Positions 9,849-49,317 of a stretch of 64,000 nucleotides of DNA are shown here, in pieces. A program made the position numbers and the translations under genes. Source of the DNA: a virus; the IMG/VR virus record IMGVR_UViG_3300007639_000002, positions 15,144 to 79,143 of that record; one strand, given 5' to 3'. Under the pieces are notes generated by a model. It made no database searches. It was not told where the DNA came from and was given only the letters and a program-made list of their open reading frames with translations. The first letter of the stretch is position 1, and each line of letters starts with the position of its first letter.

Positions 9849-10647
9849 TTTTTAATTTACTCCAAAAACTAGACTGTTCTTCCTCTTCAATTCTATCGTC
9901 AACAACTTTTACGTATCGCCTGTATGGGGCGGCAGTACCAATCGCAGGGATTGGTTGCAGCGGAGAATCCCCAAAACCTCTTCCAGATGAGAGTAAGTAA
10001 TCATCCGTTGTACCCGTCACTATCTTTTCAAAATCTTTATTCCTTTTTATAGGAATAAGGTGAGCAATTGGCGTGCCGTACTTAATGTTAAAAGAGTTAC
10101 CAGTAGTAATATTCAACACTACATTCATTGTGTGGTACACATCAGTATGCACAATGCTTGGGACTATCGTGTAGTTGGGATTTGGGTCAAATAGTGGAGG
10201 AAGTATCAAAGTAGACCATCCCGGAGCGGTACGCACCATGAACGGGTTTACTAATTTTGGGTAACCTGCGTCTTCTATTTCCCGAACGCTGGTCATAGGG
10301 CATTTACCAGTGGACTCAAAAGTAAATGGTTCATTTGAAAAGAAATTGCCAAAGGGCAGGTTTTCCATTTCAACACTCCACTTCAACTCTATATTTGGGT
10401 TGGGTGTGAAGTAAGCGTTTGACCAGAAGGGAAGCGTTGCCCCAAGAGACAAGTAGTCTAATGTCCCAGCACATCTGCGAATAGACCCTTGTTGTTTTGA
10501 TGAGTTTTTAAACCAGTCCGGCAACGTCTTATGGGTATTTATGTAAGGGGATGCCTCTAGTAAACGCTCATCCCTTGGCATGATGAGTAGTTCACCTTCT
10601 TTTGGTTGATAAACATTTTTGTATAATCTGTGTTTTTTCTTAGTCAT
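9829..10647 (-). CDS. Hypothetical protein (phage beta-rich family)
   Basis: 272 aa; PDWFK, RRC.G..D and GTPIAHLIPIKR motifs. Confidence 0.55.
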   Translation of the reverse strand: MTKKKHRLYKNVYQPKEGELLIMPRDERLLEASPYINTHKTLPDWFKNSSKQQGSIRRCAGTLDYLSLGATLPFWSNAYFTPNPNIELKWSVEMENLPFGNFFSNEPFTFESTGKCPMTSVREIEDAGYPKLVNPFMVRTAPGWSTLILPPLFDPNPNYTIVPSIVHTDVYHTMNVVLNITTGNSFNIKYGTPIAHLIPIKRNKDFEKIVTGTTDDYLLSSGRGFGDSPLQPIPAIGTAAPYRRYVKVVDDRIEEEEQSSFWSKLKNGKRFF

Positions 10648-29524: not shown

Positions 29525-29540
29525 TGTTCCACGTGGAACA
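29525..29540. promoter_or_regulatory. parS-like site 1
   Basis: Perfect palindrome TGTTCCACGTGGAACA. Confidence 0.75.
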
Positions 29541-29842: not shown

Positions 29843-30020
29843 ATACCTAGTATAGGGCTATCTAGGCGTTGTTTTTTGGTTAGCGGATTTTTGGAATAGG
29901 GCTATTGGGCCACTGGGCTGCTAGAGGGGGGTGGGTCCTGCCGGGCCACCCAGTAGTAGCGGCGACTTAACCATGGGGGGTATCCACAGTATAGCACCGC
30001 TACCTTACTGGTCACGAATC

Positions 30021-30215
30021 CTAGGCGAGTAACAACTCCCTGTGCTTCCGAGCCACTTCCATGTCTAACAGGTTCACCAGTGCATGAGCCAGTACGTCGT
30101 ACTCGGCTTCACGCCCTGCTAAGACTGCGCCAATATCATCCACCATTGTCTGCATCACATCTACCAATGCGACTGCTGTAACCATTTGCTTGCTGAGTTG
30201 TTTTGTTGTTGTCAT
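30021..30215 (-). CDS. Cassette ORF, hypothetical (MTTTKQ)
   Basis: Leaderless ATG 6 nt after TAAGGT; TAG lies inside the repeat. Confidence 0.7.
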   Translation of the reverse strand: MTTTKQLSKQMVTAVALVDVMQTMVDDIGAVLAGREAEYDVLAHALVNLLDMEVARKHRELLLA

Positions 30216-30254
30216 ACTGCCACCTTACCATGTCCCTGCTGGGAGTCACGATTC

Positions 30255-30446
30255 CTAGATTTCCTCTTCCCAGTCTGAGTTCAGGCGCTCCAATGCCCGC
30301 AGTTCCTCCGCCACATCAAATGCAGTAGCGCATGGTGTGCAGAAGTATAACTCAGTGAGCCACCTGTCCGAGTACATAGGCTCGTGCGTTGGGCTAGGTA
30401 TTGGAGCGTTGCATTCAACGCAGGTGTTTTGTGTTGTCGTTGTCAT
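30255..30446 (-). CDS. Cassette ORF, CxxC...CxxC zinc-finger protein
   Basis: CVEC and CTPC; leaderless start. Confidence 0.7.
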   Translation of the reverse strand: MTTTTQNTCVECNAPIPSPTHEPMYSDRWLTELYFCTPCATAFDVAEELRALERLNSDWEEEI

Positions 30447-30490
30447 GCTTCCAACCTATCACATGACCCTCTCAGGTCACGATTCCTACA

Positions 30491-30511
30491 TAATGAGAAT
30501 GATTCTCAACT
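30491..30511. promoter_or_regulatory. Fur/Zur-family-like box
   Basis: 7-1-7 palindrome TGAGAAT-G-ATTCTCA (30494-30508). Confidence 0.4.
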
Positions 30512-30513
30512 AA

Positions 30514-30529
30514 TGTTCCACGTGGAACA
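30514..30529. promoter_or_regulatory. parS-like site 2
   Basis: TGTTCCACGTGGAACA. Confidence 0.75.
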
Positions 30530-30549
30530 TTCCTAGAGTTGGGGCTATA

Positions 30550-30565
30550 TGTTCCACGTGGAACA
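30550..30565. promoter_or_regulatory. parS-like site 3
   Basis: TGTTCCACGTGGAACA. Confidence 0.75.
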
Positions 30566-30623
30566 TTGGTGCGGAGCGTAGGCAGGTATCCACCTACCCA
30601 CACCCACCCAGCCATTGCTGGCA

Positions 30624-30785
30624 CTACTTGGGAGCACATGATGCCCAGTGCTCCAATGCCCACTCTGCCCATGCGTTATGATCCAATGCCCACATATCCA
30701 GCGTGACAGTCTCGTCACAATAAACGCAGTGAGCGTTCAAGTACTGTGGGCATTCCATGTCGTTGATGTTCTGTGTTGTTGTCAT
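30624..30785 (-). CDS. Cassette ORF, 53 aa Cys/Trp-rich
   Basis: Hand-translated MTTTQNINDMECPQYLNAHCVYC...WASCAPK; below the ORF-track cutoff. Confidence 0.6.
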   Translation of the reverse strand: MTTTQNINDMECPQYLNAHCVYCDETVTLDMWALDHNAWAEWALEHWASCAPK

Positions 30786-30824
30786 GTAACCAACCTATCA
30801 TCTAGTGGCTCTGAGTCACGATTC

Positions 30825-30992
30825 CTAGTCCCTGTATTCTTGGGCGTTGTTGTAGTGATATAGAGCCATGGCGTACTGTTGCTTTTTCAGGTCTGCGTAT
30901 TTGCAAACCTCTGCCCTGTCTGCGTATTTCTTGGACAATCCCATGTAGTAGTCGTATTGCTCTTTATTGGTAAATTGTTTTGTTGTTGTCAT
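30825..30992 (-). CDS. Cassette ORF, 55 aa
   Basis: MTTTKQFTNKEQYDYY...; TAG inside the repeat. Confidence 0.65.
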   Translation of the reverse strand: MTTTKQFTNKEQYDYYMGLSKKYADRAEVCKYADLKKQQYAMALYHYNNAQEYRD

Positions 30993-31031
30993 GTCTCCAA
31001 CCTATCACGCCACCCACGTGAGTGACGAATC

Positions 31032-31226
31032 CTAGATAAATATATTCTGATACTCATTTTGCGCATAGTACTCAGTGCGTAACCTTTCAGCACTGTTCAT
31101 GAACCTACCCTCAGCCCGTGTTAGACCATAGGTGTACTCATGTGCCTTTAATGCATTCATCAGGTCTTCCAAAGCCTGCATTATTTTGATCTCAGTATCT
31201 GATAGTTGCTGTTGCGTTGTTGTCAT
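31032..31226 (-). CDS. Cassette ORF, hypothetical
   Basis: MTTTQQ; leaderless start; TAG inside the repeat. Confidence 0.7.
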   Translation of the reverse strand: MTTTQQQLSDTEIKIMQALEDLMNALKAHEYTYGLTRAEGRFMNSAERLRTEYYAQNEYQNIFI

Positions 31227-31265
31227 GCTTCCACCTTACCCTAGGGTCACCTTTGGTGACGATTC

Positions 31266-31433
31266 CTAGAACCTTGTATCTGTCACTGGGCGAACCTGCA
31301 TATCCCTATGGCTGAGCCAATAGACGTTGCAGGCTTGGCGACTGCCGACCATGACTACACACTTACGTGAAGAGTCATAGACTTCATGTGCTTTAGTGCT
31401 GGGCTTTACCTTTTTCATTTGCGTTGTTGTCAT
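31266..31433 (-). CDS. Cassette ORF, 55 aa basic protein
   Basis: MTTTQMKKVKPSTK...; TAG inside the repeat. Confidence 0.6.
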   Translation of the reverse strand: MTTTQMKKVKPSTKAHEVYDSSRKCVVMVGSRQACNVYWLSHRDMQVRPVTDTRF

Positions 31434-31472
31434 ATCCACACCTTATCAGGTCACCCTGCTGGGTCACGAATC

Positions 31473-31721
31473 CTACTTCAGCATTGCTTTCAGTTCAGCC
31501 TTCACCACACGTGCCGTGTCTCCACGCCATGCAGATGCATTGCTGAGGAAATAGGCGACGATATCCCTAGCGGAGTCGTACCCATATGAGCCACTGATAG
31601 AGTCCAGCGAACGCATAGCGTCTAGGTACGGCACAGCACCAAAGTATGGCTTTTTCCAGTCTGCACTAATGTCACGTGCAATGGTTGATATTGGGCGATG
31701 TTGTTGTTTTGTTGTTGTCAT
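31473..31721 (-). CDS. Cassette ORF, phage hypothetical protein
   Basis: RPISTIA..I..DW...YFGAVPYLDAM...WRG..AR.VKAELK. Confidence 0.7.
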   Translation of the reverse strand: MTTTKQQHRPISTIARDISADWKKPYFGAVPYLDAMRSLDSISGSYGYDSARDIVAYFLSNASAWRGDTARVVKAELKAMLK

Positions 31722-31760
31722 GTAATTACCTTATCAGTTAGTCGGGTTAGGTCACGAATC

Positions 31761-31970
31761 CTAGATGTTATGTCCATCTAGTTCAGTTATTTTGGCGATT
31801 GCCAAAGATAGTACAGGCTTCAGCCCTAAGAGGAACATCCACACGCCGATCATCTCAGTGCGTAGTTCATCATCCTTTAGGGCATCTTCCACGGCAGTGT
31901 TCCATTCACCGAGCCTGCCCAGTACTTCTAATGTTGATGGTAGTGGTTTGGTTGTTGTTGTCGTTGTCAT
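31761..31970 (-). CDS. Cassette ORF, hypothetical
   Basis: Leaderless ATG at 31970 (TAAGGT-N6). Confidence 0.65.
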   Translation of the reverse strand: MTTTTTTKPLPSTLEVLGRLGEWNTAVEDALKDDELRTEMIGVWMFLLGLKPVLSLAIAKITELDGHNI

Positions 31971-31979
31971 GTTCACACC

Positions 31980-32171
31980 TTACCAGCCTGCTGGCTCTAG
32001 TGACGATTCCTGATGCTCTTCTACTAGGTTGTCGTAGCACCATGTGCATACGTCAGTTCCCCAGTCTTCAGGGTCAAATCCATTATGCCCATCCACGATA
32101 GGGATCAGCATAGAAGATGCTCCACACCGTTCGCAGGCTCCGATATAAATGTTGTTGTTGTTGTCGTTCAT
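31980..32171 (-). CDS. Cassette ORF, zinc-finger-like
   Basis: CERC and CTWC; reads through the repeat and stops in the next -10 box. Confidence 0.6.
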   Translation of the reverse strand: MNDNNNNIYIGACERCGASSMLIPIVDGHNGFDPEDWGTDVCTWCYDNLVEEHQESSLEPAGW

Positions 32172-32210
32172 GTAATCACCTTACCACCTAGGAGCGTTAG
32201 GTCACGAATC

Positions 32211-32444
32211 CTAGATACCTTTCATATCGCAGATGTAATTGTGGCGAGCGTCAAAGTACCAGTCAGACTCTTGAAAGGCTTGCTCGTCGCTGGGCGTTCC
32301 ATCCTGTGCATATGCCATGAACTCTGCCCAGTTATCTAGGTAGTCGTCAGAGCCAATGTAGGACTCTTCCCATTCTTCTATATCTTCAGGTGTTACGACT
32401 AATTTAGCCGATTCCATGTCTTCCACAGATGTGTATGTGAACAC
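32211..32444 (-). CDS. Cassette ORF, very acidic protein
   Basis: Leader AACAACGACAACAACGGAGG and GTG start; D/E-rich. Confidence 0.65.
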   Translation of the reverse strand: MFTYTSVEDMESAKLVVTPEDIEEWEESYIGSDDYLDNWAEFMAYAQDGTPSDEQAFQESDWYFDARHNYICDMKGI

Positions 32445-32503
32445 TATGTGCCTCCGTTGTTGTCGTTGTTGATAGTTCTAACTTAGCACGTCACCCTGCT
32501 GGG

Positions 32504-32683
32504 TCACGAATCCTGCCGTGTGTCCATGTTCCACAGAATGCACTTAGCATCTTTTAAGATGTTGTATAGATTCATCTCTTCCCATGTCATGCCATAGTAC
32601 CCATCACGCTGGGTCAAATCAGCCATGAACATAGTAAGCGTTTCATACATTTCAGTGTTGGTTATTTTCTTTGCTGTTTTCAT
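32504..32683 (-). CDS. Cassette ORF, 59 aa
   Basis: MKTAKKITNTEMYET...; stops at the TGA within TCGTGAC. Confidence 0.6.
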   Translation of the reverse strand: MKTAKKITNTEMYETLTMFMADLTQRDGYYGMTWEEMNLYNILKDAKCILWNMDTRQDS

Positions 32684-32722
32684 ATCTTCACCTTACCATG
32701 TAGTCGGGTTGAGTCACGATTC

Positions 32723-32799
32723 CTAGTGGGTATATTTGGTTAGATTAGCCTCAATATACCAGTGAGGTGCTTTCCCCGCTAACCATGCGGGTTTTCGTT
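32723..32799 (-). ncRNA. Candidate double-pseudoknot RNA cassette
   Basis: Own cassette promoter, no credible ORF; both hairpin loops are complementary to consecutive segments of the 3' tail. Confidence 0.6.
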
Positions 32800-32838
32800 A
32801 ATCCCAACTTACCATGATGGAGTGTTGGGTTACGATTC

Positions 32839-32907
32839 CTAATAAAGGATGGCATTCAATGCCTTAGGAGGTGTCATGAATGCCACCCTCTATTAGTTGT
32901 CGTCGTT
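32839..32907 (-). ncRNA. Candidate hairpin sRNA with anti-SD loop
   Basis: Own cassette promoter; 20 bp stem with two G-U pairs; loop contains CACCUCCU. Confidence 0.6.
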
Positions 32908-32946
32908 AATCCCAACCTACCACGTGGGTAGGCTGGGTCACGATTC

Positions 32947-33372
32947 CTAGAGGCTGATATGCGCTCCTGAGAGCAAGTCTTCAACCTCATTGCGGATGGT
33001 GTCGCTGATGCTGTCACTGAAAGATGAGTTATCAGTGAAATCGTATTCATGGAGGATGTCGTTAATGCGATCCTCCAAAGCATCTACTACTTGGTTCATT
33101 ACCTTGTCACTGATTGCATTGACAAGTTGATTAAGCAATTCTTCCATGGTCATGTTGTTAGTGCCTTTCGTTGTTGTTGATGAGTTCACTTTATCAGGTG
33201 GTTGTACTGAGTCACGATTCCTAGACTCCATGGCGATTTGCTCTTCATGATACTCACGTAATAACTCTACGGTATAGTTCATGTAGATACCCTTTGCCAT
33301 GGCATCTTCTACTTCAGTCTTTGCCATTAGTAAATGGAACACTTTAAGTTGTTGTTGCGTTTCGTTGTTCAT
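32947..33372 (-). CDS. Two cassette ORFs fused in frame (second start at 33153)
   Basis: Repeat and promoter at 33211 lie inside the ORF; internal AAAGG-N-ATG. Confidence 0.6.
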   Translation of the reverse strand: MNNETQQQLKVFHLLMAKTEVEDAMAKGIYMNYTVELLREYHEEQIAMESRNRDSVQPPDKVNSSTTTKGTNNMTMEELLNQLVNAISDKVMNQVVDALEDRINDILHEYDFTDNSSFSDSISDTIRNEVEDLLSGAHISL

Positions 33373-33411
33373 GTAAGCACCTTATCAGGTGACATTGTTA
33401 GGTCACGATTC

Positions 33412-33639
33412 CTAGCGAATCTCTACAACCCTGCCTAAGCAAGTGAGTAAGTTGCCTACGCTCGTAGTGGTTTCCCCTGCCGTGGTGGTGATAACTGCAT
33501 CATCACCCACTACTTCTACAGAGATAACCCTTGTAATGATTGGGCGTGAGACAGGTGTCCATGATGGAATGACGATAAACTCGCCTTCTATAATTTGGTC
33601 AGCCCGTACTGTGAATGCTGGTTGTTGTTTCGTTGTCAT
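33412..33639 (-). CDS. Cassette ORF, hypothetical beta-rich protein
   Basis: MTTKQQ; leaderless start. Confidence 0.65.
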   Translation of the reverse strand: MTTKQQPAFTVRADQIIEGEFIVIPSWTPVSRPIITRVISVEVVGDDAVITTTAGETTTSVGNLLTCLGRVVEIR

Positions 33640-33678
33640 GGTTTCACCTTATCATGTTGAGTTGGTAGGTCACGAATC

Positions 33679-33990
33679 CTAGTATGACCTGAACACGTAA
33701 CCATCAAGTTCCCACACGTCACCACCTAGTTCTAGGTCACGTGCGAATGACTCATAGTCAAAGTATCCAGTTTTGACTGCTTCAGAAAAGATATCGTCTG
33801 CCAACTCTTCAGCGTACTCACGTACTGATGTGACTGCTACGTAGGCATCCTCAAATGCTGATACTTCGCTGTCGTAGTCTTTGGTTATGCCAAGGTTCCA
33901 GCAGTAGATGGCAAAGGCTTGCTCGTCTATGTTGTTGTCTTCTGCTACCTGTGCAATTTCTGCGTTGCTGTATTTATGTGTTGTTTCCAT
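33679..33990 (-). CDS. ardA: ArdA-like antirestriction protein (C-terminal domains)
   Basis: FEDAY...EYAEEL...YFDYESFARDLELGGDVWELDGYVFRSY; acidic. Confidence 0.75.
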   Translation of the reverse strand: METTHKYSNAEIAQVAEDNNIDEQAFAIYCWNLGITKDYDSEVSAFEDAYVAVTSVREYAEELADDIFSEAVKTGYFDYESFARDLELGGDVWELDGYVFRSY

Positions 33991-34029
33991 ACCTGTACCT
34001 TACCCTCTAGTAGTTGTTAGTCACGAATC

Positions 34030-34215
34030 CTAGAACGATGTTCCTACCAGCGCATTATCAAATGTGCGATAGATTACAATGCTCCTAGTTTGGTCTATAG
34101 ATTCCCACATGGATGCCAACCACGTTGGCAGGTGTGCATCATGCAGTGTGCGTATGTACGTTTGGGGGTCACCCTCTAGTTGATATTGTACTTCTACTTT
34201 TTTCGTTGTTGTCAT
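34030..34215 (-). CDS. Cassette ORF, hypothetical
   Basis: MTTTKK; leaderless start. Confidence 0.65.
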   Translation of the reverse strand: MTTTKKVEVQYQLEGDPQTYIRTLHDAHLPTWLASMWESIDQTRSIVIYRTFDNALVGTSF

Positions 34216-34254
34216 GGTTTCACCTTAGCATTCTGAGTTAGTGGGTCACGAATC

Positions 34255-34509
34255 CTACAACTCAAAAGAATGCAGTATCTTAGACGTTTCGTCTTGTGAA
34301 TGTTTATTGGATGTCCAAAAGTGAACCTCTGTACGTGTGTAGATACCACCATGGCACACCATGCCTAGGCGATTACGTGCTTCTTTTTCTGCACGTTCTT
34401 CATTGTCGTAGTCTGCACCACCTACGTAGTCTTCGTTGTTGTCCCAAAAGTGTACTGTGTACCCTGAAGCAATATCTTGATTCATGTTGTTGCCTTTCGT
34501 TGTTGTCAT
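34255..34509 (-). CDS. Cassette ORF, hypothetical
   Basis: MTTTKGNNM: leaderless ATG plus an internal SD-led ATG. Confidence 0.65.
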   Translation of the reverse strand: MTTTKGNNMNQDIASGYTVHFWDNNEDYVGGADYDNEERAEKEARNRLGMVCHGGIYTRTEVHFWTSNKHSQDETSKILHSFEL

Positions 34510-34539
34510 GTAATCAACTTACCACGTGGTGGTGTTAGG

Positions 34540-34905
34540 TCACGAATGCAGTTCCCGCATTTTGACCAACCCAACCTGATAATTGGCGGTATTGGTCAAG
34601 TTAAGCCACCAGCCAGTGACGAATCCATTTTCGTATTCGTCACAGATATGCTCGTTGTATTCGCCATGCTCGGTGAGAAGATCACCCAGTAGTTCGTTGA
34701 TGGATTCCCCTGCCCATTCACCTGATAGTGGTGATGGTGGCATGAAATCGTCGGGGAGATCACACTCGTCATATAGGCGAAGGAACTCTACATATGTTTC
34801 CTGCGTAGTGTTACCGTCAAAGATCCATGATGATGCATTCTTGCCAGCAACTAATCCACGAATGTATGCATCATATGCATCAGTTGTTTTGGTTGTTGTG
34901 TCCAT
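34540..34905 (-). CDS. Cassette ORF, acidic hypothetical
   Basis: PSPLSGEWAGES motif; D/E-rich. Confidence 0.65.
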   Translation of the reverse strand: MDTTTKTTDAYDAYIRGLVAGKNASSWIFDGNTTQETYVEFLRLYDECDLPDDFMPPSPLSGEWAGESINELLGDLLTEHGEYNEHICDEYENGFVTGWWLNLTNTANYQVGLVKMRELHS

Positions 34906-34914
34906 GTGAGTACC

Positions 34915-35139
34915 TTACCCTGCCTTGATGTCCAGTGACGAATCCTGCCATACTTCTTTGTCTTCTTTAAGTTTGTATGCCCATTTGTATGCTGTGTTCA
35001 TTGCTGTCCACATTTGGCTGTATGGGGAATTGAATGAGTCTTCTTGATGAGCGTGTAAGTTGTAGCACACTGATTCCAGTGCATCTATCGCATTAAATAG
35101 TTCTTCAAGTGTCATGTCTTCGTTGATGTCGTGTTTCAT
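34915..35139 (-). CDS. Cassette ORF, hypothetical
   Basis: Leaderless; stops in the next -10 box. Confidence 0.6.
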   Translation of the reverse strand: MKHDINEDMTLEELFNAIDALESVCYNLHAHQEDSFNSPYSQMWTAMNTAYKWAYKLKEDKEVWQDSSLDIKAG

Positions 35140-35178
35140 GTTGTCACCTTATCATTTTGTTGTTGGTAGTCACGAATC

Positions 35179-35688
35179 CTATCCATACACCACCTCACCA
35201 AAGAGAATGAATTGCAGAATGGAGTCTGCTGTGAGAGCGTCGTACCAACCATCAAAGGCATCATCATCGTTGAAATAGATGGCACGTAAGCATTGCAACG
35301 CAGTCTTACCCAGTTGTCCATGGTCAGGTACGTTCTCCTGTGAGAACTCACCTGTGCCTACCTTGACGATAAAATCTATAACCATTTGCTCGTTGATAGG
35401 GTAAGCCTTGCCATAGGTGAACCATTCATCCCAGTCGTTTATTCCTTCTTGAAAACCATGTTCTTTGTTGGCATACAGTGGGTGGGTTTTGTCCACCTCT
35501 GTTACTTCTTCTTCTACGTAGATGGTTGCGCTACAGTACTGATCAGTGTTACCCAATTCGTACTCTCCGTTTGCACTTCCCCATTTGTAGTTCTTGCGAA
35601 TCGCCCAGTACCCACATCCTAGTTCCAAAGCATCTGTAAGAATTGTGCAGGCTCCGTATGTCATTTGTTGTTTATTTGCTGTTGTCAT
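35179..35688 (-). CDS. Cassette ORF, acidic phage protein
   Basis: G.GYWA and C-terminal DA.TAD.ILQ..LFGEVVYG. Confidence 0.7.
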   Translation of the reverse strand: MTTANKQQMTYGACTILTDALELGCGYWAIRKNYKWGSANGEYELGNTDQYCSATIYVEEEVTEVDKTHPLYANKEHGFQEGINDWDEWFTYGKAYPINEQMVIDFIVKVGTGEFSQENVPDHGQLGKTALQCLRAIYFNDDDAFDGWYDALTADSILQFILFGEVVYG

Positions 35689-35727
35689 GTCATCAACTTA
35701 TCAGGTGAGTGTGCTGAGTCACGAATC

Positions 35728-36186
35728 CTACCAACTACTTTGATAGGAGAACTGGTACTCTTCGTCAAGAGACAGCGCATTTTTAATGATGGAAATTGAG
35801 TACTCTAGGCTCTCAAAGTACCACTCGTCGTACTCAATGTTGCCAAAGAAGAAACCACTAGCGGTGGGTAACAGGTCATCGGCAAGGCTATGGTCACCTA
35901 GAACCTGTTCGCAGACGTTCATTAACTCCGCAAGTTTCTCACGTGACACGTATGCATCTTGGCATTCATCTACGCCATCCTGTACGTTGTCCACGAACCA
36001 CTGGTGGATGGCGTTGGCTTTACGCCAGTAGCCCACCATGCACCGTACTGTGATAGATGGATAGTCAGTGTCTAGTTCAATGTCTAATACTTTCCTGACT
36101 GCATGGTACGCTTCATTAACGTCGTCACCGTAGTGTGATGCTGGTGAGAGGTAGCGTTCTGCTTTGAGGTACTGATCTAATCCCAT
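35728..36186 (-). CDS. Phage hypothetical protein (MGLD...YWRKANAIHQWF type)
   Basis: Recognisable motifs including LLPT.SGFFFG and YQSSW; SD AAGGA. Confidence 0.7.
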   Translation of the reverse strand: MGLDQYLKAERYLSPASHYGDDVNEAYHAVRKVLDIELDTDYPSITVRCMVGYWRKANAIHQWFVDNVQDGVDECQDAYVSREKLAELMNVCEQVLGDHSLADDLLPTASGFFFGNIEYDEWYFESLEYSISIIKNALSLDEEYQFSYQSSW

Positions 36187-36259
36187 GTTGTTATCCTTTT
36201 GTTGTTGGTTGTTGTTACTGAAGTTACTTTATCATGTTGTTGTTATGAGTGGCGAATCC

Positions 36260-36332
36260 TGTGGAATACACCGATTTCTACGACTAGGGGAAACAACAAC
36301 GAAACCCTAGGAGCAAACCGATGTACTCCACA
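36260..36332 (-). ncRNA. Candidate long hairpin RNA with a loop antisense to cassette 5' ends
   Basis: Stem GUGGAGUACAUCGGUUU/AAAUCGGUGUAUUCCAC with G-U pairs on the minus strand; inner stem CUAGGG/CCCUAG; loop UUUCGUUGUUGUUUC. Confidence 0.55.
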
Positions 36333-36336
36333 TGAC

Positions 36337-36531
36337 TCACCACTCATGTTCTTGTATAGATAATATCAGCACTAATGCGTTAAACATCAACAATATGCTA
36401 AGAAAACCTAAGAGCAAATTACCTGTATTTTCCATACCACCCATGAACCCAATGCTCAGGATGATAAGAGGCAGAATACAGCGTTTCTTTGTACGTGTCC
36501 AGCGATACCAGTTGGTCACCCTGATCCTCAT
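36337..36531 (-). CDS. Small two-TM membrane protein
   Basis: ATGA-coupled to the upstream ORF. Confidence 0.55.
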   Translation of the reverse strand: MRIRVTNWYRWTRTKKRCILPLIILSIGFMGGMENTGNLLLGFLSILLMFNALVLILSIQEHEW

Positions 36532-36776
36532 AACTCTTCCCCGTTTTCGTCAGTGAAGATCAGGTCAGAGATATCTGTCTGATGACCCCAGCCACATGAA
36601 AAATCATCAGTCTTGGCAAGATGTTCAATGTGCTGAACAACATCGTCTAACGTGATGTCCATGTCTTCATCTATGTCACTATTGAGAGTCCTGATGTCTT
36701 TGATTACGTCGTACACGTCATAAGTTATTACTTTTGTAACGTTGATGTACTTGGGTAGTTCTGTTGTTTCGTTCAT
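36528..36776 (-). CDS. Cassette ORF, acidic hypothetical
   Basis: Leaderless ATG at 36776. Confidence 0.65.
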   Translation of the reverse strand: MNETTELPKYINVTKVITYDVYDVIKDIRTLNSDIDEDMDITLDDVVQHIEHLAKTDDFSCGWGHQTDISDLIFTDENGEEL

Positions 36777-36815
36777 ATCCATACCTTATCTTGTTGTTAG
36801 TGTTAGTCACGAATC

Positions 36816-37217
36816 CTAGATATTGGCTTCCCAGTCAATATCAGAGTCATAAATGTCAATGCCAAAACGTGAGTCCCAACGCCATACTTCCTCAAAGGCA
36901 ACGGTATCTGCACGAACCATTACCCTGCCACGAATGAAACCCTCTTCAGGATTAGTCTCGTCTGCGTTCCATTGTTTCACGTACTCACCTACACACTCGT
37001 ACACGTAGCCCTGTAGGGCATCTACGTGCTGTGGGTTATCTAAACACCATGTGTTTTCTATCACGTCTACGAGCATCCCCATGACCATTAGTTTTGGGTT
37101 GCTTTCGCACATATTTATGATGCGATTGAGCATACGCTCTATTTCGCTTGCTGGTAATACACCATCCCAGTACGCCATGGTTTCTTGCTCGTAGTACAAG
37201 CCTTCACAGCCATCCAT
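36816..37217 (-). CDS. Acidic hypothetical protein
   Basis: TAG inside the repeat. Confidence 0.6.
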   Translation of the reverse strand: MDGCEGLYYEQETMAYWDGVLPASEIERMLNRIINMCESNPKLMVMGMLVDVIENTWCLDNPQHVDALQGYVYECVGEYVKQWNADETNPEEGFIRGRVMVRADTVAFEEVWRWDSRFGIDIYDSDIDWEANI

Positions 37218-37666
37218 TATGCTTCCAAATCTTCTAGTGGGTACAACACCTTACGTGCGTACACTTCTTCAATAGCGTCAAGAAGAACCTCATGGTAGTT
37301 GCTCCATGCTTTTTCATTGGAAATAGCAAACGCTGAAATAATCTCTAGTGTTTCTTTATCAACATCAAAAGCCCATACAACAGAGTCTTTGATATCGGGA
37401 TCGGGAGTACCCCAATGAACTTCTAATTCTTCACGAATAGAGGCAGGTGAGTAACAAACGCTGTTGCTGTAGTTCACGTCACCCCATCCTGTATGGTCAC
37501 CCATAAACTTCAATGAGATGCCATGCTTACGTGCAATGTTAGATATTTCTTCGTCAGAAAATGCTTCTAAGGCTGACTCTTCTGATGTAAGGTCATCAGT
37601 ATCAACGATATAGCAGTTGTCTGCATTAACAATAGTTCCTGATTGTGCGTCAATAAGTAATTTCAT
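37217..37666 (-). CDS. Cassette ORF, acidic hypothetical
   Basis: TAAGGT-N6-ATG. Confidence 0.65.
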   Translation of the reverse strand: MKLLIDAQSGTIVNADNCYIVDTDDLTSEESALEAFSDEEISNIARKHGISLKFMGDHTGWGDVNYSNSVCYSPASIREELEVHWGTPDPDIKDSVVWAFDVDKETLEIISAFAISNEKAWSNYHEVLLDAIEEVYARKVLYPLEDLEA

Positions 37667-37682
37667 AGTTGTACCTTAGCCT

Positions 37683-37925
37683 TCAGAGGCTGTTACTCAC
37701 GAATCCTAGTTTGTCAAGGATAGCGTCACGTACCCATTCAATATCAGGACAAATCTCACATACATCGTACTGATTGCATATTTCTGCCCATGCATCTTTG
37801 GTAAGTACTTCATAATCATCATCGTCATAAAGGCTTGATGCCCATTCGTATGAGTAGATGTCACAACAGATGTCGTCGTCATCTTTTAAGTTTGCGATAA
37901 TCTCTTTTAAGGTTGATACCTTCAT
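37683..37925 (-). CDS. Acidic hypothetical protein
   Basis: SD GAGGA; D-rich. Confidence 0.6.
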   Translation of the reverse strand: MKVSTLKEIIANLKDDDDICCDIYSYEWASSLYDDDDYEVLTKDAWAEICNQYDVCEICPDIEWVRDAILDKLGFVSNSL

Positions 37926-38062
37926 GTTGTTTCCTCTATTAGTTTTTCTAGTTTGTTAATGAGTTCTAGCATTTCATCTGTCAATGGACTGCACCACGTT
38001 GTCTTAACGTTACGTAGTTCTGTCAATAGCAGGTGTAAGCCAAAATCTAATTGCTGTGTCAT
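37922..38062 (-). CDS. 46 aa hypothetical protein
   Basis: Hand-translated MTQQLDFGLHLLL...; ATGA-coupled at both ends. Confidence 0.5.
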   Translation of the reverse strand: MTQQLDFGLHLLLTELRNVKTTWCSPLTDEMLELINKLEKLIEETT

Positions 38063-38340
38063 TGTGTTACCTCTACATTCACTATATTATGAACAGAGCC
38101 TGAGTCACGAATCCTAGAGAACGTGCTACCTTTTGTCGGGTCTGTGCGGATGAAATAGAATGAGTCTGCCCACTGATGGATATCGTCGGCAATGTCTTCA
38201 TTCATGGCGACTACCTGCCCATGCTCATGGTCAATATAGACTGCCAGTTCACCGTCTTCTGTTATATACAATCCGATATACCAATCGCCCATCATTATCT
38301 GTGCGGAGTTATCGGTTTGCTCAATGTAGTTGTTACTCAT
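38059..38340 (-). CDS. Hypothetical protein
   Basis: Reads through the repeat at 38104. Confidence 0.55.
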   Translation of the reverse strand: MSNNYIEQTDNSAQIMMGDWYIGLYITEDGELAVYIDHEHGQVVAMNEDIADDIHQWADSFYFIRTDPTKGSTFSRIRDSGSVHNIVNVEVTQ

Positions 38341-38582
38341 AAACAGAACCCATTACAACGTGGGAATCCGCAGGCTGGGCAGTAAGACTCTTCTTCTTCT
38401 TCTTCTTCGTCTTTTGTGATGCCAAAGATGGTATAACCAGCCTCAACCAAAAGGTCAGCAACTAGGTCTAATGACTCACCATCGGTGTACTCGTACTCTA
38501 GGTCTTTGGGATTAGAACCTTCAACACGCTTTTCTAAGATGTTGATGATTTCTTGAATGAGTTCGTCGTTTGCTGTTGTCAT
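38337..38582 (-). CDS. Cassette ORF, acidic protein with C-terminal Cys cluster
   Basis: MTTAND; poly-E; CPACGFPRCNGFC. Confidence 0.65.
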   Translation of the reverse strand: MTTANDELIQEIINILEKRVEGSNPKDLEYEYTDGESLDLVADLLVEAGYTIFGITKDEEEEEEESYCPACGFPRCNGFCL

Positions 38583-38591
38583 ATCATCAAC

Positions 38592-38873
38592 TTACCATAC
38601 TGGTGGTGCTAGGTCAGGATTCCTGAGAGAAGAGGTATTTGGGATTACGTCACAGTTCATTAAATAAATGGCGTTGCTGAGTAGTGATGAAAGTTCATCT
38701 TCATTGTCAATGTACTCCCCGTCACCAAGATAAGCAACAGACCATTCATGTGTGTCGTTGTGCTGTACTGTGCCGTCAGAGAAATGCTCTTCCTCAGCGT
38801 TAGTATCCCATTCCCACTTGTTGGTGGATGAATCGTATGAGACTATGAAATAGTGTGTATGGTTTCCGTTCAT
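38592..38873 (-). CDS. Acidic hypothetical protein
   Basis: Start at MNGNH (ATGA coupling, GAGG SD). Confidence 0.55.
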   Translation of the reverse strand: MNGNHTHYFIVSYDSSTNKWEWDTNAEEEHFSDGTVQHNDTHEWSVAYLGDGEYIDNEDELSSLLSNAIYLMNCDVIPNTSSLRNPDLAPPVW

Positions 38874-39031
38874 TGTGTTACTTCCTCTATGTCTGTTGTG
38901 TTCCATGTTTCTTGCTCGTCTACACACCATGACTCGTTGCTGTCAAAGAGTTGTTTAGCCTGTTCAATGCTGTCGGCATCTACTTCGTGGCGGTAGTGAG
39001 TTACTTTTTCGTATGTGAGTGTGTACTTCAT
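38870..39031 (-). CDS. DpnD/PcfM-like small protein
   Basis: MKYTLTYEKV...EVDADSIEQA. Confidence 0.45.
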   Translation of the reverse strand: MKYTLTYEKVTHYRHEVDADSIEQAKQLFDSNESWCVDEQETWNTTDIEEVTQ

Positions 39032-39222
39032 GCTGGTTCTTCCTCTTCTACATCTTCTACATCCCATGGAGTGTTCCACTCACGAAAGCCCCACATATCT
39101 TTTGACTCTAAATCGTCATCTGTGAACTTATCGTAAGCCTCTAGCGCACCCTCTTCTGAGTCTGCTTTAATTTCGTAGCAGTGGCTAATTACTTCATCTA
39201 CACGTACTAAATAAGTTTTCAT
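39028..39222 (-). CDS. DpnD/PcfM-like small protein
   Basis: MKTYLVRVDEV...EIKADSEEGA. Confidence 0.5.
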   Translation of the reverse strand: MKTYLVRVDEVISHCYEIKADSEEGALEAYDKFTDDDLESKDMWGFREWNTPWDVEDVEEEEPA

Positions 39223-39282
39223 GTTGTTCCTTTCGTTGTCGTTATTTACAACTTACCATTAGAAGTGTGTTGGTCACGAATC

Positions 39283-39702
39283 CTACGTAGCGTCACTCAT
39301 GACGAATGCCGATACACAAGCCTGCTCGTACTCTTCTGCATTGCGTACCCCATAGAAGAAATGGTCACCAGCACCTGTAGTAATCTCTGCCCACGTCATC
39401 AGTGAGTCTGTTGTGATGTCTCCATTGTCTAGGATCACTGTTCCCCACATAGCGTCGGCAACAGACATGACGTACTCTTTAATGTTTTCAGCCATATCAA
39501 AATGATCTACGTAGTCAATACGCCACCTGCCTTCACAGGGGAACCCACTCTCTAGGTCTACTGGCTCATTCTCATTGGCAGGTATAAACCCCACAAGTGT
39601 AATGTCATCTACATTCTCCACCAGCATTGCTAGGCGGTCATACTTTTGGTTAGAGTCCGATGGCACTACGCACCTCTTCTTCGCAGGCTTCACGTGCTTC
39701 AA
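39283..39702 (-). CDS. Acidic hypothetical protein (start uncertain)
   Basis: TAG inside the repeat; 5' end overlaps the neighbouring gene. Confidence 0.55.
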   Translation of the reverse strand: MKHVKPAKKRCVVPSDSNQKYDRLAMLVENVDDITLVGFIPANENEPVDLESGFPCEGRWRIDYVDHFDMAENIKEYVMSVADAMWGTVILDNGDITTDSLMTWAEITTGAGDHFFYGVRNAEEYEQACVSAFVMSDAT

Positions 39703-40249
39703 TGTATGCGTTGTCTACACGCTCCCACATGGTGTCCATGTCAGTATCCTCAAAACTACCCTCTACCGTGATGTTCTCTGTGAACGAAGAATGCCATTGA
39801 CCGTCATGGTATGAACTAGCACCTGCAAAGCCCATGCCCTGCTCGTCATAAGACAAAACAAACTTAAAGTTTGGATACAACGTAGAGATATGCTCAAAAG
39901 CCTTTTCGGGTGGTGCCCATGCTGAGTTGAAGTAAAACGAACGGTAGCCGATGTCTTCGCCACCCATCTCAGTATCGTAATCACCCCACTTGGTTCCCCA
40001 GTTGTCACAACACCAGTCGTACCAATCCTTGTGACCGTACTTGGCGATGTTCGCCTCTTGTTGTATGCGATGCTCTTCTGCTTTATCTGCACCCATGAAG
40101 CCTGCCACTGTCTCGTATAGTTCTGTAGGGCAAGGGTAAAGAGAACGTATGATCTTTATACGCCCGTCTACTGTGATGTCTTCTACAAACTTCTGTAGTG
40201 CTAATTCGTTACCCCATACGTAGAGGTTATTACTGCAATCGTTAGGCAT
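39650..40249 (-). CDS. DUF1281/YubB ferredoxin-like protein
   Basis: MPN.C.N, WYDWCCDNWGTKW, F.SAWAPP, Y.E.GMGFAG. Confidence 0.75.
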   Translation of the reverse strand: MPNDCSNNLYVWGNELALQKFVEDITVDGRIKIIRSLYPCPTELYETVAGFMGADKAEEHRIQQEANIAKYGHKDWYDWCCDNWGTKWGDYDTEMGGEDIGYRSFYFNSAWAPPEKAFEHISTLYPNFKFVLSYDEQGMGFAGASSYHDGQWHSSFTENITVEGSFEDTDMDTMWERVDNAYIEAREACEEEVRSAIGL

Positions 40250-40583
40250 TTACTTTCCAATCTTCTATGATGCGGTTATTTTTCATGTCTTTTACAAGTA
40301 GGCGTACCCACTCAGACGTATTTGCAAATCCAACTTCTTCGCCGTCGTCGTACTCAACTGGGTACACGGTGACCATGATGTTTTCATCACCGAACTCATC
40401 GTTATAGTCCCATGCAAAAGTGTTGAAATCAAAAGCCAAATCCCCGATGATGATAGATTCCCATGCATCTTCGTCGCCAGTGAACTTACGGCGAGAACGG
40501 TGATTCTTCTTAAGTATCTTGTAAGCGTGTTTCATTAACGCTTTTTTATTTTGTTTAATGTCTTGAAGAGTTGATGTTTTCAT
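40242..40583 (-). CDS. Cassette ORF, hypothetical
   Basis: TAAGGT-N-ATG leaderless start. Confidence 0.6.
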   Translation of the reverse strand: MKTSTLQDIKQNKKALMKHAYKILKKNHRSRRKFTGDEDAWESIIIGDLAFDFNTFAWDYNDEFGDENIMVTVYPVEYDDGEEVGFANTSEWVRLLVKDMKNNRIIEDWKVNA

Positions 40584-40622
40584 ATATGCACCTTATCATT
40601 GAGAGTGGTTGAGTCACGAATC

Positions 40623-40829
40623 CTATTGCTGTTCAATAAGAAAAGATGGGCGTTCAATAGTTGAGTGAGTACCCTCTACGACTGTGATGCCGTAGTGAAC
40701 TTCACCCCAACCTAAAATGTCTGTAGGGTCATTGCCTAACAATGCTTCGTACACAAGGTCTTGTGCCTGCATTTCGTTCTTGGCTTTGACAAAGTATGTT
40801 CCTGTTGCTGTTACTGTGTAGTAGTTCAT
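40623..40829 (-). CDS. Cassette ORF, DpnD/PcfM-like
   Basis: MNYYTVT...VKAKNEMQA. Confidence 0.5.
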   Translation of the reverse strand: MNYYTVTATGTYFVKAKNEMQAQDLVYEALLGNDPTDILGWGEVHYGITVVEGTHSTIERPSFLIEQQ

Positions 40830-40858
40830 ACCGCCACTTTAACTCACGTGATGGCTGA

Positions 40859-40882
40859 GTCACGAATCCTAGGAATCGTGAC
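40859..40882. promoter_or_regulatory. Back-to-back divergent cassette promoters sharing CCTAGG
   Basis: gtcacgaatcCTAGgaatcgtgac, with a -10 box on each side. Confidence 0.85.
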
Positions 40883-47880: not shown

Positions 47881-49317
47881 TCATGTTTCTTCTGAGAGGT
47901 CAATGATCTCCGCATACATAGCGTTGGTAGCATCAGGACCCATTCCACCGCCGGGAAGCATTCGTGCCTGTTCTCCTGCCTTGTTGCCAAAGAGTCGGGA
48001 GAGTACTCCCGAACTACCACGTGCCTCTACCTCAAAACGAACGGTGTCACGGGTATCGGAAATGTTCTTGAACTTGTCTACAAGGTTAAACAGTCTGTCC
48101 ATCTCTTGTGACAGGGCGGGGTCAAGACCTTGCCCCTCTAGTTCTTCAGCGAACCTAGCGAACATCACACGACCTACTTGCATCTCCATAATGGCTCGCA
48201 TCGCAGCCTGAAGTTGGTCTTTTGTGCGGATCTCAATGGGCAAAGAAAACGCACACTCAGAATGTTCCTTAAAACTGGGGCAACGTGAGGAGAGATAGCA
48301 ACTATCACACTGCCTTAAAGGGTTCGCATTGTACTTAATTACAGGGGTAGATTCAGGGGCAATTTCAATAGATTCCCCTTCATTATCATAGGTTTGGCTA
48401 CCTATAGACACCACGTTTTCAATGCCCATAACTGGTAGCAATAGACGTTCACTCTCGTGCCGCTTCTCAGGGGCATTGATAGCAATAGATGACCCCCTCT
48501 GTGCCACGTTTGGCAAAGTAGGGTTAGGGGGGGAGATAGCAACTATGTCCCCTGTTTTAGGGTCAATAAACTCATGCTCATCATCATCACTTACAGGGTC
48601 ATAGCCCCCAAAAGTTCGGGTCTCCCACTGCTTCCAAGACTCAACTGCTAACGCACCAACTACGGCAACTTCATCCTCAATCACGGCATCGTAGTCAATA
48701 CCCAAGCGCATGATGTCGGCACGGTGCTTACGACGAGCAGAGTCTTTTTGCTGTGCAGGATATCTTCTTAGTCCGTGCCCATCCCACACCTGTGTCTCGC
48801 CATAACGCAATACACTCGTCCACGAGACCACGACTACAGACTCCCAAGGGATGCCCTCAATGAGGTCAGGCTTGGATGTAATACCGATGAGTTTGGTTCC
48901 CCAACGCTCAGACAACTGGCGAATACGAGACTGGTTCTTGTTGTTAATTGCCTTGTCACTAATGGCTACTCTGCCATTCTTTTGGCACAGCCAAGCAAGG
49001 CGCTCTACGTCATTCTCATCATTCCAAATGGGTACATATTTCTCACCCAACCAAGCGCCGTCATAAGTGGGGTGCCCAATAATGATGTCTAACTGGTCGG
49101 CGTTGTCACGAATAAAACTATCGTAACGTGCCAAGTCCTCGTCACCCTCTGAGATGTATACAAGGATTTCCCCACCATTGAACATGGTTGGAAGGTCTAG
49201 TTCTTTCTTCTTTGGTATGGGCAAATGGGTGAGGTTCATAGCAAACCTCTTGACATCCAAGTCCTTTAGGATATTACGGTATGTCCCCTTTTCAGCCCCA
49301 CCAAAGTAAACCTTCAC
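47881..49317 (-). CDS. Hypothetical protein with a C-terminal Cys cluster
   Basis: 478 aa; CDSCYL..RCP...EC. Confidence 0.65.
   Translation of the reverse strand: MKVYFGGAEKGTYRNILKDLDVKRFAMNLTHLPIPKKKELDLPTMFNGGEILVYISEGDEDLARYDSFIRDNADQLDIIIGHPTYDGAWLGEKYVPIWNDENDVERLAWLCQKNGRVAISDKAINNKNQSRIRQLSERWGTKLIGITSKPDLIEGIPWESVVVVSWTSVLRYGETQVWDGHGLRRYPAQQKDSARRKHRADIMRLGIDYDAVIEDEVAVVGALAVESWKQWETRTFGGYDPVSDDDEHEFIDPKTGDIVAISPPNPTLPNVAQRGSSIAINAPEKRHESERLLLPVMGIENVVSIGSQTYDNEGESIEIAPESTPVIKYNANPLRQCDSCYLSSRCPSFKEHSECAFSLPIEIRTKDQLQAAMRAIMEMQVGRVMFARFAEELEGQGLDPALSQEMDRLFNLVDKFKNISDTRDTVRFEVEARGSSGVLSRLFGNKAGEQARMLPGGGMGPDATNAMYAEIIDLSEET

What the first reader, a model, noticed from the sequence alone, without database searches (positions are those of the whole stretch)
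36260..36332. Hairpin RNA whose loop is antisense to the shared 5' ends of the cassette mRNAs
Seen: a 73 nt minus-strand hairpin just after the stop at 36337. The outer stem has several G-U pairs and the inner stem is CUAGGG/CCCUAG. The loop UUUCGUUGUUGUUUC is the reverse complement of (A)ACAACAACGAAA, which occurs exactly at the start of the cassette transcripts at 34215, 34509 and about 33180, and partially at many other MTTT starts. Inference: a trans-acting feedback repressor or timer that could silence many early cassettes through their common CAA tag. It would be the counterpart of the anti-SD hairpin.
Basis: partly seen in the sequence, partly recalled or inferred. Interest (0 to 1): 0.85.

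Follow-up and report, generated by a model that had tools for sequence, protein, structure and literature searches.

The report
Phage hairpin mirroring early mRNA starts
An uncultured phage keeps a very stable RNA hairpin in its early-gene array, and the exposed loop is the mirror image of the CA-rich start shared by about 25 of its own early messages, so it probably damps their translation, though no experiment or transcript data exist.

Summary
It is a 101-nt hairpin (window 36246-36346, minus strand) with 42 pairs, 7 of them G-U. MFE is -57.3 kcal/mol (z -10.9), against -39.8 for the opposite strand.

It lies in a phage early region of about 30 tandem promoter units (GGATTCGTGAC, 17 nt, TANNNT, 6 nt, A). 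Most of these should give leaderless mRNAs starting AUGACAACAAC.

The 15-nt loop pairs at -10 kcal/mol or better with 23 of 29 predicted 5' ends. Only 3 of 87 internal control windows reach that value, and loop shuffles give z -3.8.

Syntenic hairpins follow the same small membrane-protein gene in three diverged relatives. Their stems change by compensatory substitutions. Two of the three keep the loop core UUCGUUG; the third, on a 1.4-kb contig, has a different loop. In one relative the whole 9-nt loop complements that phage's own commonest 5'-end 9-mer, GGCAACGAA.

My reading (about 45%): a GcvB-R1-like anti-enhancer RNA carried in a 3' UTR. The main rival is a PeSL-type attenuator or processing stem.

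No transcript data could be obtained. Earlier notes of this scan describe similar anti-leader hairpins in other phages; I did not check them.

The parts
36246..36346 (-). Full RNA hairpin: lower stem of 13 bp, a mismatch, a 17+3 bp middle stem, a 6-bp GC clamp and the apical loop
   Evidence: 42 pairs, 7 of them G-U; MFE -57.3, z -10.9. The opposite strand gives -39.8. The fold persists in a 391-nt context.
36290..36304 (-). Apical 15-nt GU-rich loop UUUCGUUGUUGUUUC, the anti-tag
   Evidence: opening cost about 1 kcal/mol. It is the only sense-strand occurrence of TTCGTTG, GTTGTTG or CGTTGTT in the 11-kb array.
36337..36531 (-). Gene for a 64-aa two-helix membrane protein. Its TGA stop (36337-36339) is paired inside the lower stem, and the hairpin travels with this gene in relatives.
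36776..36816 (-). Nearest upstream promoter unit (predicted +1 at 36776). Its transcript, an 84-aa gene plus the 64-aa gene, carries the hairpin as a 3' UTR. No promoter unit lies between it and the hairpin.
36219..36259 (-). Next promoter unit: -35-like GGATTCGCCAC at 36249-36259 (its RNA copy is the 3' arm of the lower stem), then 17 nt, TAAAGT, 6 nt, and predicted +1 at 36219
36187..36219 (-). CAA-rich leader of the downstream 152-aa gene (35728-36186). It holds AACAACAAC and is a possible target in cis.
   Evidence: -10.5 kcal/mol, 9 contiguous pairs.
29981..40869 (-). Array of about 30 tandem promoter units. Their predicted 5' ends (AUGACAACAAC and variants) are the proposed targets. The best matches start at 34509, 34215 and 33181 (12-13 contiguous pairs).

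Best explanation
The element is a conserved structured RNA made as the 3' untranslated end of the early transcript that encodes the small membrane protein.

Its long, G-U-containing stem should make it resistant to exonucleases. The stem also exceeds the 22-bp idealised substrate length of E. coli RNase III, so the apical part could be released as a small RNA.

The conserved GU-rich loop is displayed on a GC clamp. I propose that it base-pairs with the CA-rich sequence at about +3 to +15 of the phage's own early mRNAs, most of which are predicted to be leaderless. CA-rich sequence next to a start codon is a known translation enhancer. Covering it, and the G of a 5'-terminal AUG, should lower ribosome binding. 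As the hairpin RNA accumulates, translation of the early cassette genes would be turned down together.

What is shown: the structure, its strand, its conservation, the compensatory changes, and loop-to-tag complementarity that tracks each phage's own tags. What is inferred: that the promoters fire at the predicted +1, that a stable hairpin RNA accumulates, that pairing happens in the cell (in trans, or in cis on read-through RNA), and that the effect is repression.
For: 1. Structure on the sense strand. MFE is -57.3 kcal/mol (z -10.9) against -39.8 for the antisense strand, with 7 G-U pairs.

2. Synteny. A hairpin directly follows the stop codon of the homologous membrane-protein gene in L202, L194, L199 and L203.

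3. Compensatory change. In the middle stem, window against L199, 8 pairs are unchanged, 6 change on one side, 3 change on both sides and none is broken. In L199 the -35 element is GGATTTGGACA, and the 5' arm of the lower stem has changed with it.

4. Loop conservation despite stem turnover. UUCGUUG is present in the window, L194 and L199. L194 and L199 share an identical 9-nt loop on quite different stems. L194 also has a second hairpin whose GC clamp and 16-nt GUUGUUG loop resemble the window's apex.

5. Complementarity. The window loop reaches -10 kcal/mol or better with 23 of 29 predicted 5' ends, against 3 of 87 internal windows. Shuffled loops give z -3.8, and 0 of 300 do as well. Twenty of the 29 ends have 8 or more contiguous Watson-Crick pairs.

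6. Loop and tag change together. The commonest non-AUG 7- and 8-mers of the window's 5' ends (ACAACAAC in 15 of 29) lie within the complement of the window loop. The commonest 7-, 8- and 9-mers of the L194 contig (GCAACGAA in 8 of 31, GGCAACGAA in 5 of 31) are exactly the complement of its loop.

7. The tag is an RNA-level or DNA-level signal rather than a coding one. It is shared by coding leaderless starts and by non-coding leaders.

8. Precedent. CA repeats after the start codon enhance leaderless translation (PMC9031893). The GU-rich R1 region of GcvB silences CA/ACA enhancers in many mRNAs (PMC3879156).
Against: - No transcript, end-mapping or binding data could be obtained.
- There is one hairpin gene against about 30 promoters of similar consensus, so repression would require the hairpin RNA to be much more stable than its targets.
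- A closed 15-nt loop cannot hold a 12-13-bp helix without strain, and a 9-nt loop allows only a short one. The usable pairing is therefore shorter than the nominal match.
- Both partners are low-complexity (GUU against CAA), so part of the signal is composition.
- The joint change of loop and tag amounts to essentially one evolutionary event between two lineage groups.
- The 24-nt loop of L203 is not complementary to the 5' ends of the other genomes.
- L197 carries the membrane-protein gene but has a second small ORF where the hairpin would be.
- The hairpin has no promoter or terminator of its own.
Confidence: 0.45

Rival explanations
1. It is a PeSL-type attenuator or insulator stem-loop. 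The hairpin stops or slows RNA polymerase that has read through from upstream units just before the next promoter, or it protects the 3' end of the upstream mRNA. On this view the loop's likeness to the antisense of the tags has no pairing function.
For: In T4-type phages, early-promoter cassettes contain stem-loops that can overlap or lie upstream of the -35 box, next to the stop codon of the upstream gene. One such stem-loop cut reporter expression about as much as a strong terminator (PMC2839356). Here the stem runs from the stop codon to the -35 element. In unrelated phages the homologue of the downstream 152-aa gene is preceded by a hairpin with a T run and then a promoter (my reading of the sequences).
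Against: None of the four homologues has a U tract after the stem. The loops are large (9 to about 25 nt), which weakens a terminator, yet their sequence is conserved while the stems turn over. Only one of about 30 units in the array carries such a stem. This reading does not explain why each phage's loop matches that phage's own tags.
Confidence: 0.27
2. It is an RNase III processing site that cuts the polycistronic early RNA between cistrons, as in the T7 early region. Only the duplex would matter.
For: The near-continuous duplex has 34-42 bp in the window, L199 and L194. The idealised E. coli RNase III substrate spans 22 bp (PMC3867540). The overall shape drew weak miRNA-precursor hits in Rfam.
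Against: L203 and the second hairpin of L194 have stems of only 13 and 10 bp yet keep a large GU-rich loop. Loop conservation is not needed for RNase III. This reading is compatible with the best explanation, as its biogenesis step, rather than exclusive of it.
Confidence: 0.1
3. It is a cis-acting leader switch. On read-through RNA the loop pairs with the CA-rich stretch immediately downstream, just before the next gene's ribosome-binding site, and tunes only that gene.
For: AACAACAAC lies 2 nt after the extended stem and recurs in the leader of the 152-aa gene. In L194, an 11-nt complement of the second hairpin's loop lies in the next promoter spacer, by my reading.
Against: The gene downstream of the hairpin differs between the window and L194, whereas the hairpin stays with the upstream gene. 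Transcripts from the next promoter do not contain the hairpin. The best matches are to distant 5' ends.
Confidence: 0.1
4. The loop is a binding site for a protein, or a mimic of a host RNA segment with which the CA tags normally interact. Complementarity to the tags would then be indirect.
For: A conserved loop on a variable stem is also the signature of protein-binding operators. Two other hairpins in this genome display pyrimidine-rich loops of 16-18 nt.
Against: No candidate protein or host RNA could be tested, because the host is unknown. Direct pairing is the simpler reading of a perfect 9-13-nt complement.
Confidence: 0.06

Closest known systems
GcvB small RNA, R1 region (enterobacteria; PMC3879156)
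   Same: A conserved, unpaired GU-rich sequence is complementary to CA/ACA-rich translation-enhancing elements at or near the start sites of many mRNAs, so one RNA can lower a whole gene set.
   Different: GcvB is a roughly 200-nt chromosomal sRNA with its own promoter, acting with Hfq on 5' UTRs. Here the GU-rich sequence is the closed apical loop of a 101-nt hairpin in a phage mRNA 3' UTR. The targets would be the phage's own, mostly leaderless, 5' ends. There is no Rfam match.
PeSL (promoter-early stem-loop) cassettes of T4-type phages (PMC2839356)
   Same: Both are dense arrays of small early genes, each with a sigma-70-type promoter. A stem-loop sits beside or over the -35 box and the upstream stop codon. 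The window and L202 are mosaic with breaks at the units.
   Different: PeSL stem-loops occur in most cassettes, are short and G/C-rich, and are read as attenuators. Here one unit in about 30 carries a 42-bp stem with a conserved 15-nt loop that is antisense to the cassette 5' ends.
RNase III sites of the phage T7 early region (my own knowledge), and sRNAs matured by RNase III (PMC8687705, from the start of its abstract)
   Same: A long hairpin lies between early cistrons transcribed by the host polymerase, and the duplex exceeds the 22-bp idealised substrate length (PMC3867540).
   Different: T7 sites have a characteristic internal loop and no conserved apical loop. Cleavage here is untested.
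c4 antisense RNA of phages P1 and P7 (my own knowledge; Rfam holds a C4 family)
   Same: It is a phage hairpin RNA cut out of an mRNA precursor, and its loops pair with ribosome-binding regions to block translation.
   Different: No match to any Rfam family, at curated thresholds over the whole window or at E up to 10 around the hairpin. c4 has a single target operon rather than dozens of 5' ends.

Membership tests
GcvB (Rfam RF00022) | Match to the family covariance model | tested here: not met
   No Rfam family reached its curated score in the window. GcvB was not among the matches at E up to 10 in 36100-36500.
GcvB (Rfam RF00022) | Conserved, unstructured GU-rich pairing region complementary to CA-rich elements at start sites of many mRNAs | tested here: met
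   The loop is unpaired. The core is conserved in three lineages. It pairs with 23 of 29 predicted 5' ends.
GcvB (Rfam RF00022) | Independent sRNA gene with its own promoter and intrinsic terminator | tested here: not met
   No promoter unit lies between 36816 and the hairpin. There is no stem followed by a U tract.
Intrinsic (Rho-independent) terminator | G+C-rich stem with a short loop, followed directly by a U tract | tested here: not met
   The sequence after the stem is A/C-rich in the window, L194, L199 and L203. The loops are 9 to about 25 nt. The hairpin is not listed by the terminator scan.
RNase III substrate | Duplex of about two helical turns (22 bp) or more | tested here: met
   42, 34 and 36 pairs in the window, L199 and L194. 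The 22-bp figure is from PMC3867540. L203 has only 13 pairs.
RNase III substrate | Cleavage by RNase III | not testable with these tools
   This needs an enzyme assay or an rnc mutant host.
PeSL cassette stem-loop (PMC2839356) | Stem-loop within or next to a sigma-70-type early promoter, adjacent to the upstream stop codon, in an array of small early genes | tested here: met
   The stem spans the stop codon at 36337-36339 and the -35 element at 36249-36259. The array is shown.
PeSL cassette stem-loop (PMC2839356) | Attenuates transcription from upstream | not testable with these tools
   This needs a reporter or Term-seq experiment.
tRNA or tmRNA | Cloverleaf recognised by ARAGORN | tested here: not met
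   No genes found in the window.

The most novel reading that the evidence does not exclude
Lytic phages with arrays of leaderless early genes may carry a dedicated shut-off RNA. This would be a nuclease-resistant 3'-UTR hairpin whose loop masks the CA-rich enhancer tag, and the first base after AU of the 5'-terminal start codon, of the whole early regulon. Translation of dozens of early mRNAs would then be switched off together without any protein repressor. Loop and tag would co-evolve as a private address code in each phage lineage. Together with the anti-Shine-Dalgarno-like hairpins in the same genome, and the similar hairpins noted by this scan in unrelated phages, this would be a widespread and undescribed layer of phage temporal control.
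Probability: 0.3. Interest if true: 0.85.

Novelty: new variant of a known kind. Interest (0 to 1): 0.6.

Why it matters
Shut-off of phage early genes is usually explained by proteins: repressors, sigma or anti-sigma factors, or nucleases such as RegB. An RNA that addresses a common 5' tag would be a compact, programmable way to time a whole regulon. It would also be the first proposed regulator aimed specifically at leaderless mRNAs, whose regulation is poorly understood (PMC9031893).

The system can be tested directly with short reporters, because both partners are only 9-15 nt. The tag, the loop and the fixed promoter geometry could also serve as orthogonal parts for synthetic biology.

If the rival reading holds instead, the element is an unusual U-less attenuator overlapping a promoter. 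That would still inform how arrays of about 30 co-directional promoters avoid interfering with one another.

Tried and rejected
Searches that led nowhere
- The INPHARED phage collection has no DNA match, near or distant.
- The exact apical sequence is absent from IMG/VR.
- The 14-nt promoter motif returned only single chance hits.
- A composite promoter pattern found only L197 and L102 plus two chance hits, L204 and L205.
- The 152-aa neighbouring protein is widespread, but its 80 loci are unrelated phages without this architecture.
- The GTDB genome scan found no relative.
- Ten closer homologues of the membrane protein exist in the protein collection.
- Pfam gave no hit for the six flanking proteins.

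Methods that did not help
- RNAcofold cannot represent pairing between a hairpin loop and a linear RNA, and it returned no interaction. I used duplex energies plus the loop-opening cost instead.
- MAFFT could not align the arms in register. I compared helices directly and built no covariance model.

Readings I rejected
- Inverted cassette remnant, or a plus-strand promoter firing into the loop. No TANNNT lies at the required distance on the plus strand, and the order of elements is not that of an inverted unit: the -35 complement is outside and the tag complement is in the centre (my reading).
- 6S-RNA-like promoter mimic. The -35-like duplex has the wrong polarity relative to the open loop.
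- A short ORF across the hairpin (36243-36347, 34 aa). The sequence changes in relatives preserve pairing, not amino acids.
- A hok-like fold-back onto its own mRNA's 5' end. This pairing is possible in the window (tag at 36776), but the 5' end of the corresponding L194 transcript matches its loop poorly (tag at L201 6913).

Full report
**What is there**

The window is part of a 79-kb IMG/VR virus contig. It has no DNA match among deposited phage genomes.

The reported 73-nt minus-strand hairpin is real: MFE -33.6 kcal/mol, z -7.6. It is the upper part of a larger structure. From 36346 to 36246 the RNA forms 42 base pairs, 7 of them G-U, with MFE -57.3 kcal/mol and z -10.9. The complementary strand reaches only -39.8. 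G-U pairs become A-C mismatches on the other strand, so the structured molecule is the RNA of the sense (minus) strand.

The lower stem encloses the TGA stop of a 64-aa membrane-protein gene (36337-36531). On its 3' side it consists of the RNA copy of the -35-like element of the next promoter unit. The 15-nt loop (36290-36304) sits on a 6-bp GC clamp. It costs about 1 kcal/mol to hold open, and the fold survives in a 391-nt context.

No tRNA and no Rfam family matches. At relaxed thresholds only miRNA-precursor-like noise appears.

**Surroundings**

Between about 30.0 and 40.9 kb the minus strand carries about 30 copies of one unit: GGA(T/A)TCGT(G/C)AC, 17 nt, TANNNT (mostly TAAGGT, often preceded by TGn), 6 nt, then an A. 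In most units that A begins ATG, usually ATGACAACAAC. In many units the TAG just before the motif is the stop codon of the preceding gene.

Four observations favour sigma-70-type extended -10 promoters over mere Shine-Dalgarno sites:
- The spacing is fixed.
- A divergent back-to-back pair sits at 40870/40871.
- Units without an ATG at +1 still start A-CA-rich and then carry a separate ribosome-binding site (39243, 33181, 32473, 36219).
- Relatives L197 and L199 have GGATTTGGACA at the same position.

Most cassette mRNAs should therefore be leaderless. This is a prediction, not a measurement. CA repeats just after the start codon are reported to enhance leaderless translation (PMC9031893, citing Martin-Farmer and Janssen 1999). 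ACA motifs are translation enhancers (PMC3879156). No promoter unit lies between the one at 36816 and the hairpin, so the hairpin is the 3' UTR of that two-gene transcript.

**Relatives**

A helicase search found contig L194, which has the same unit architecture. Its strongest hairpin directly follows the homologue of the membrane-protein gene. Further homologues of that gene were found in these loci:
- L202: nearly identical to the window.
- L199: hairpin of 34 pairs, 7 G-U, -48.0 against -25.0 antisense.
- L203: 13-bp stem with a 24-nt loop.
- L197: no hairpin; a second small ORF sits in its place.
- L207/L208: a promoter-driven hairpin with a CUCCUAAGG loop instead.

Between the window and L199 the middle stem has 8 unchanged pairs, 6 changed on one side, 3 changed on both sides and none broken. 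The 5' arm of the lower stem follows the change of the -35 element. In L202 the single substitution closes a mismatch.

The loop behaves differently from the stems. The core UUCGUUG is present in the window, L194 and L199. L194 and L199 share an identical 9-nt loop on entirely different stems. L194 also has a second hairpin one gene downstream, whose GC clamp and 16-nt GUUGUUG loop resemble the window's apex. Stems that vary by compensation around a conserved loop are the pattern expected when the loop sequence is what is recognised.

**Is the complementarity more than chance?**

- Duplex energies between the window loop and the first 20 nt of 29 predicted transcripts average -10.95 kcal/mol.
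- 23 of the 29 reach -10 or better, against 3 of 87 internal windows of the same transcripts.
- Composition-preserving shuffles of the loop average -5.75 (z -3.8), and none of 300 is as good.
- 20 of the 29 ends have 8 or more contiguous Watson-Crick pairs. Three have 12-13.
- On the sense strand of the 11-kb array, the anti-tag 7-mers occur only in this loop, whereas CAACAAC occurs 30 times.
- The commonest non-AUG 7- and 8-mers of the window's 5' ends lie within the loop complement. In the L194 contig the commonest 7-, 8- and 9-mers (GCAACGA, GCAACGAA, GGCAACGAA) are exactly the complement of its 9-nt loop. That loop pairs poorly with the window's tags.

So loop and tag differ between lineages in a matched way. 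This amounts to roughly one evolutionary event. The loop of L203 shows no such match to the tags of the other genomes, and its own contig is only 1.4 kb.

**What it is not**

- No homologue has a U tract after the stem. Canonical terminators are not enriched anywhere in the regions I scanned, so the missing U tract is only weak evidence against termination in this unknown host.
- No plus-strand promoter fires into the loop.
- The arrangement is not that of an inverted copy of a unit.
- The short ORF across the hairpin is not conserved as protein.
- A 6S-like promoter mimic fails on polarity.

**Mechanism**

My preferred reading (about 45%) is an anti-enhancer RNA. The hairpin accumulates as a stable 3'-end fragment, possibly trimmed or released by RNase III, since the duplex far exceeds the 22-bp idealised substrate (PMC3867540). 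Its loop pairs with the CA-rich tag and the G of the 5'-terminal AUG, lowering ribosome binding on many early mRNAs together.

The closest working analogue is the GU-rich R1 region of GcvB, which silences CA/ACA enhancers in dozens of mRNAs (PMC3879156). By membership the element is not GcvB: there is no model match and no promoter or terminator of its own.

The main rival (about 27%) is a PeSL-type attenuator or 3'-end protector. PeSL stem-loops can overlap the -35 box next to the upstream stop codon, and one was shown to attenuate strongly (PMC2839356). That reading leaves the conserved, lineage-matched loop unexplained. The remaining rivals are pure RNase III processing, a cis switch on the adjacent CA-rich leader, and a protein-binding or RNA-mimic loop.

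**Limits**

- Only four independent hairpin lineages are available.
- A closed loop of 9-15 nt can hold only a short helix.
- One hairpin gene faces about 30 promoters.

Earlier notes of this scan describe hairpins with anti-leader loops in several unrelated uncultured phages. These are unchecked AI notes and are not evidence for this case. If they hold, the phenomenon is recurrent.

**Verdict**

The element is a new variant of known kinds: multi-target antisense regulation of CA-rich enhancers, and stem-loops in early-promoter cassettes.

Noticed in passing
L194:3555-3600 (minus strand), and L194:3465-3555: A second GU-loop hairpin lies at the stop codon of the next gene. It has a 10-bp GC-rich stem and a 16-nt UUUUGUUGUUGUUUGU loop. 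About 110 nt of further structured non-coding RNA follows, closed by a 10-13-bp stem, with no Rfam match.
   Followed up: partly
L207:6237-6300 (identical in L208); window 32838-32908 (minus strand): In a more distant relative the membrane-protein gene is followed by a promoter (TTGATT, 17 nt, TAAGGT) that drives a hairpin with loop UCAUCUCCUAAGGCUU. The loop resembles that of the window's promoter-driven hairpin at 32.8 kb (UGACACCUCCUAAGGCAU; -32.3 kcal/mol, z -7.8). A Shine-Dalgarno GAGGAGGG lies about 30 nt downstream in L207.
   Followed up: partly
window 5867-5936: A 14-bp hairpin (-34.6 kcal/mol) lies just upstream of the large terminase gene. Its minus-sense loop is pyrimidine-rich (GUUGUCCCCCUUUCCUUC).
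   Followed up: no
window 29981-40869 (minus strand); 40872 and 42818 (plus strand): The -10 hexamer TAAGGT would also read as a UAAGG Shine-Dalgarno, 7-8 nt before the AUG, on read-through RNA. Each gene could therefore be translated both from a leaderless transcript and from a polycistronic one. Relatives L197 and L199 use GGATTTGGACA as the -35 element at identical spacing.
   Followed up: partly
window 35700-36200 against L202:4378-4824: The window and the near-identical contig L202 are mosaic. Blocks of 95-100% identity alternate with blocks of 62-80% whose breaks fall at promoter units. The whole 152-aa gene, for example, is a 51%-identical allele. This suggests cassette exchange by recombination at the repeated units, as proposed for PeSLs.
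   Followed up: partly
window 29525-29540, 30514-30529, 30550-30565: There are three perfect copies of the 16-bp palindrome TGTTCCACGTGGAACA. Two of them, 36 bp apart, form a very stable structure (-40 kcal/mol). From memory they resemble bacterial parS sites.
   Followed up: no
window 29925-30016 (minus strand): The last promoter unit of the array (predicted +1 at 29981) is followed not by an ORF start but by a strongly structured RNA (-33.7 to -39.1 kcal/mol). It may be another non-coding cassette.
   Followed up: no
window 47881-49317 and 10640-12127 (minus strand): The phage encodes a homologue of queuine tRNA-ribosyltransferase (PHROG 887) and a protein of PHROG 2928, annotated as tryptophan halogenase. 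It also encodes DNA polymerase I, a helicase and a large terminase.
   Followed up: no
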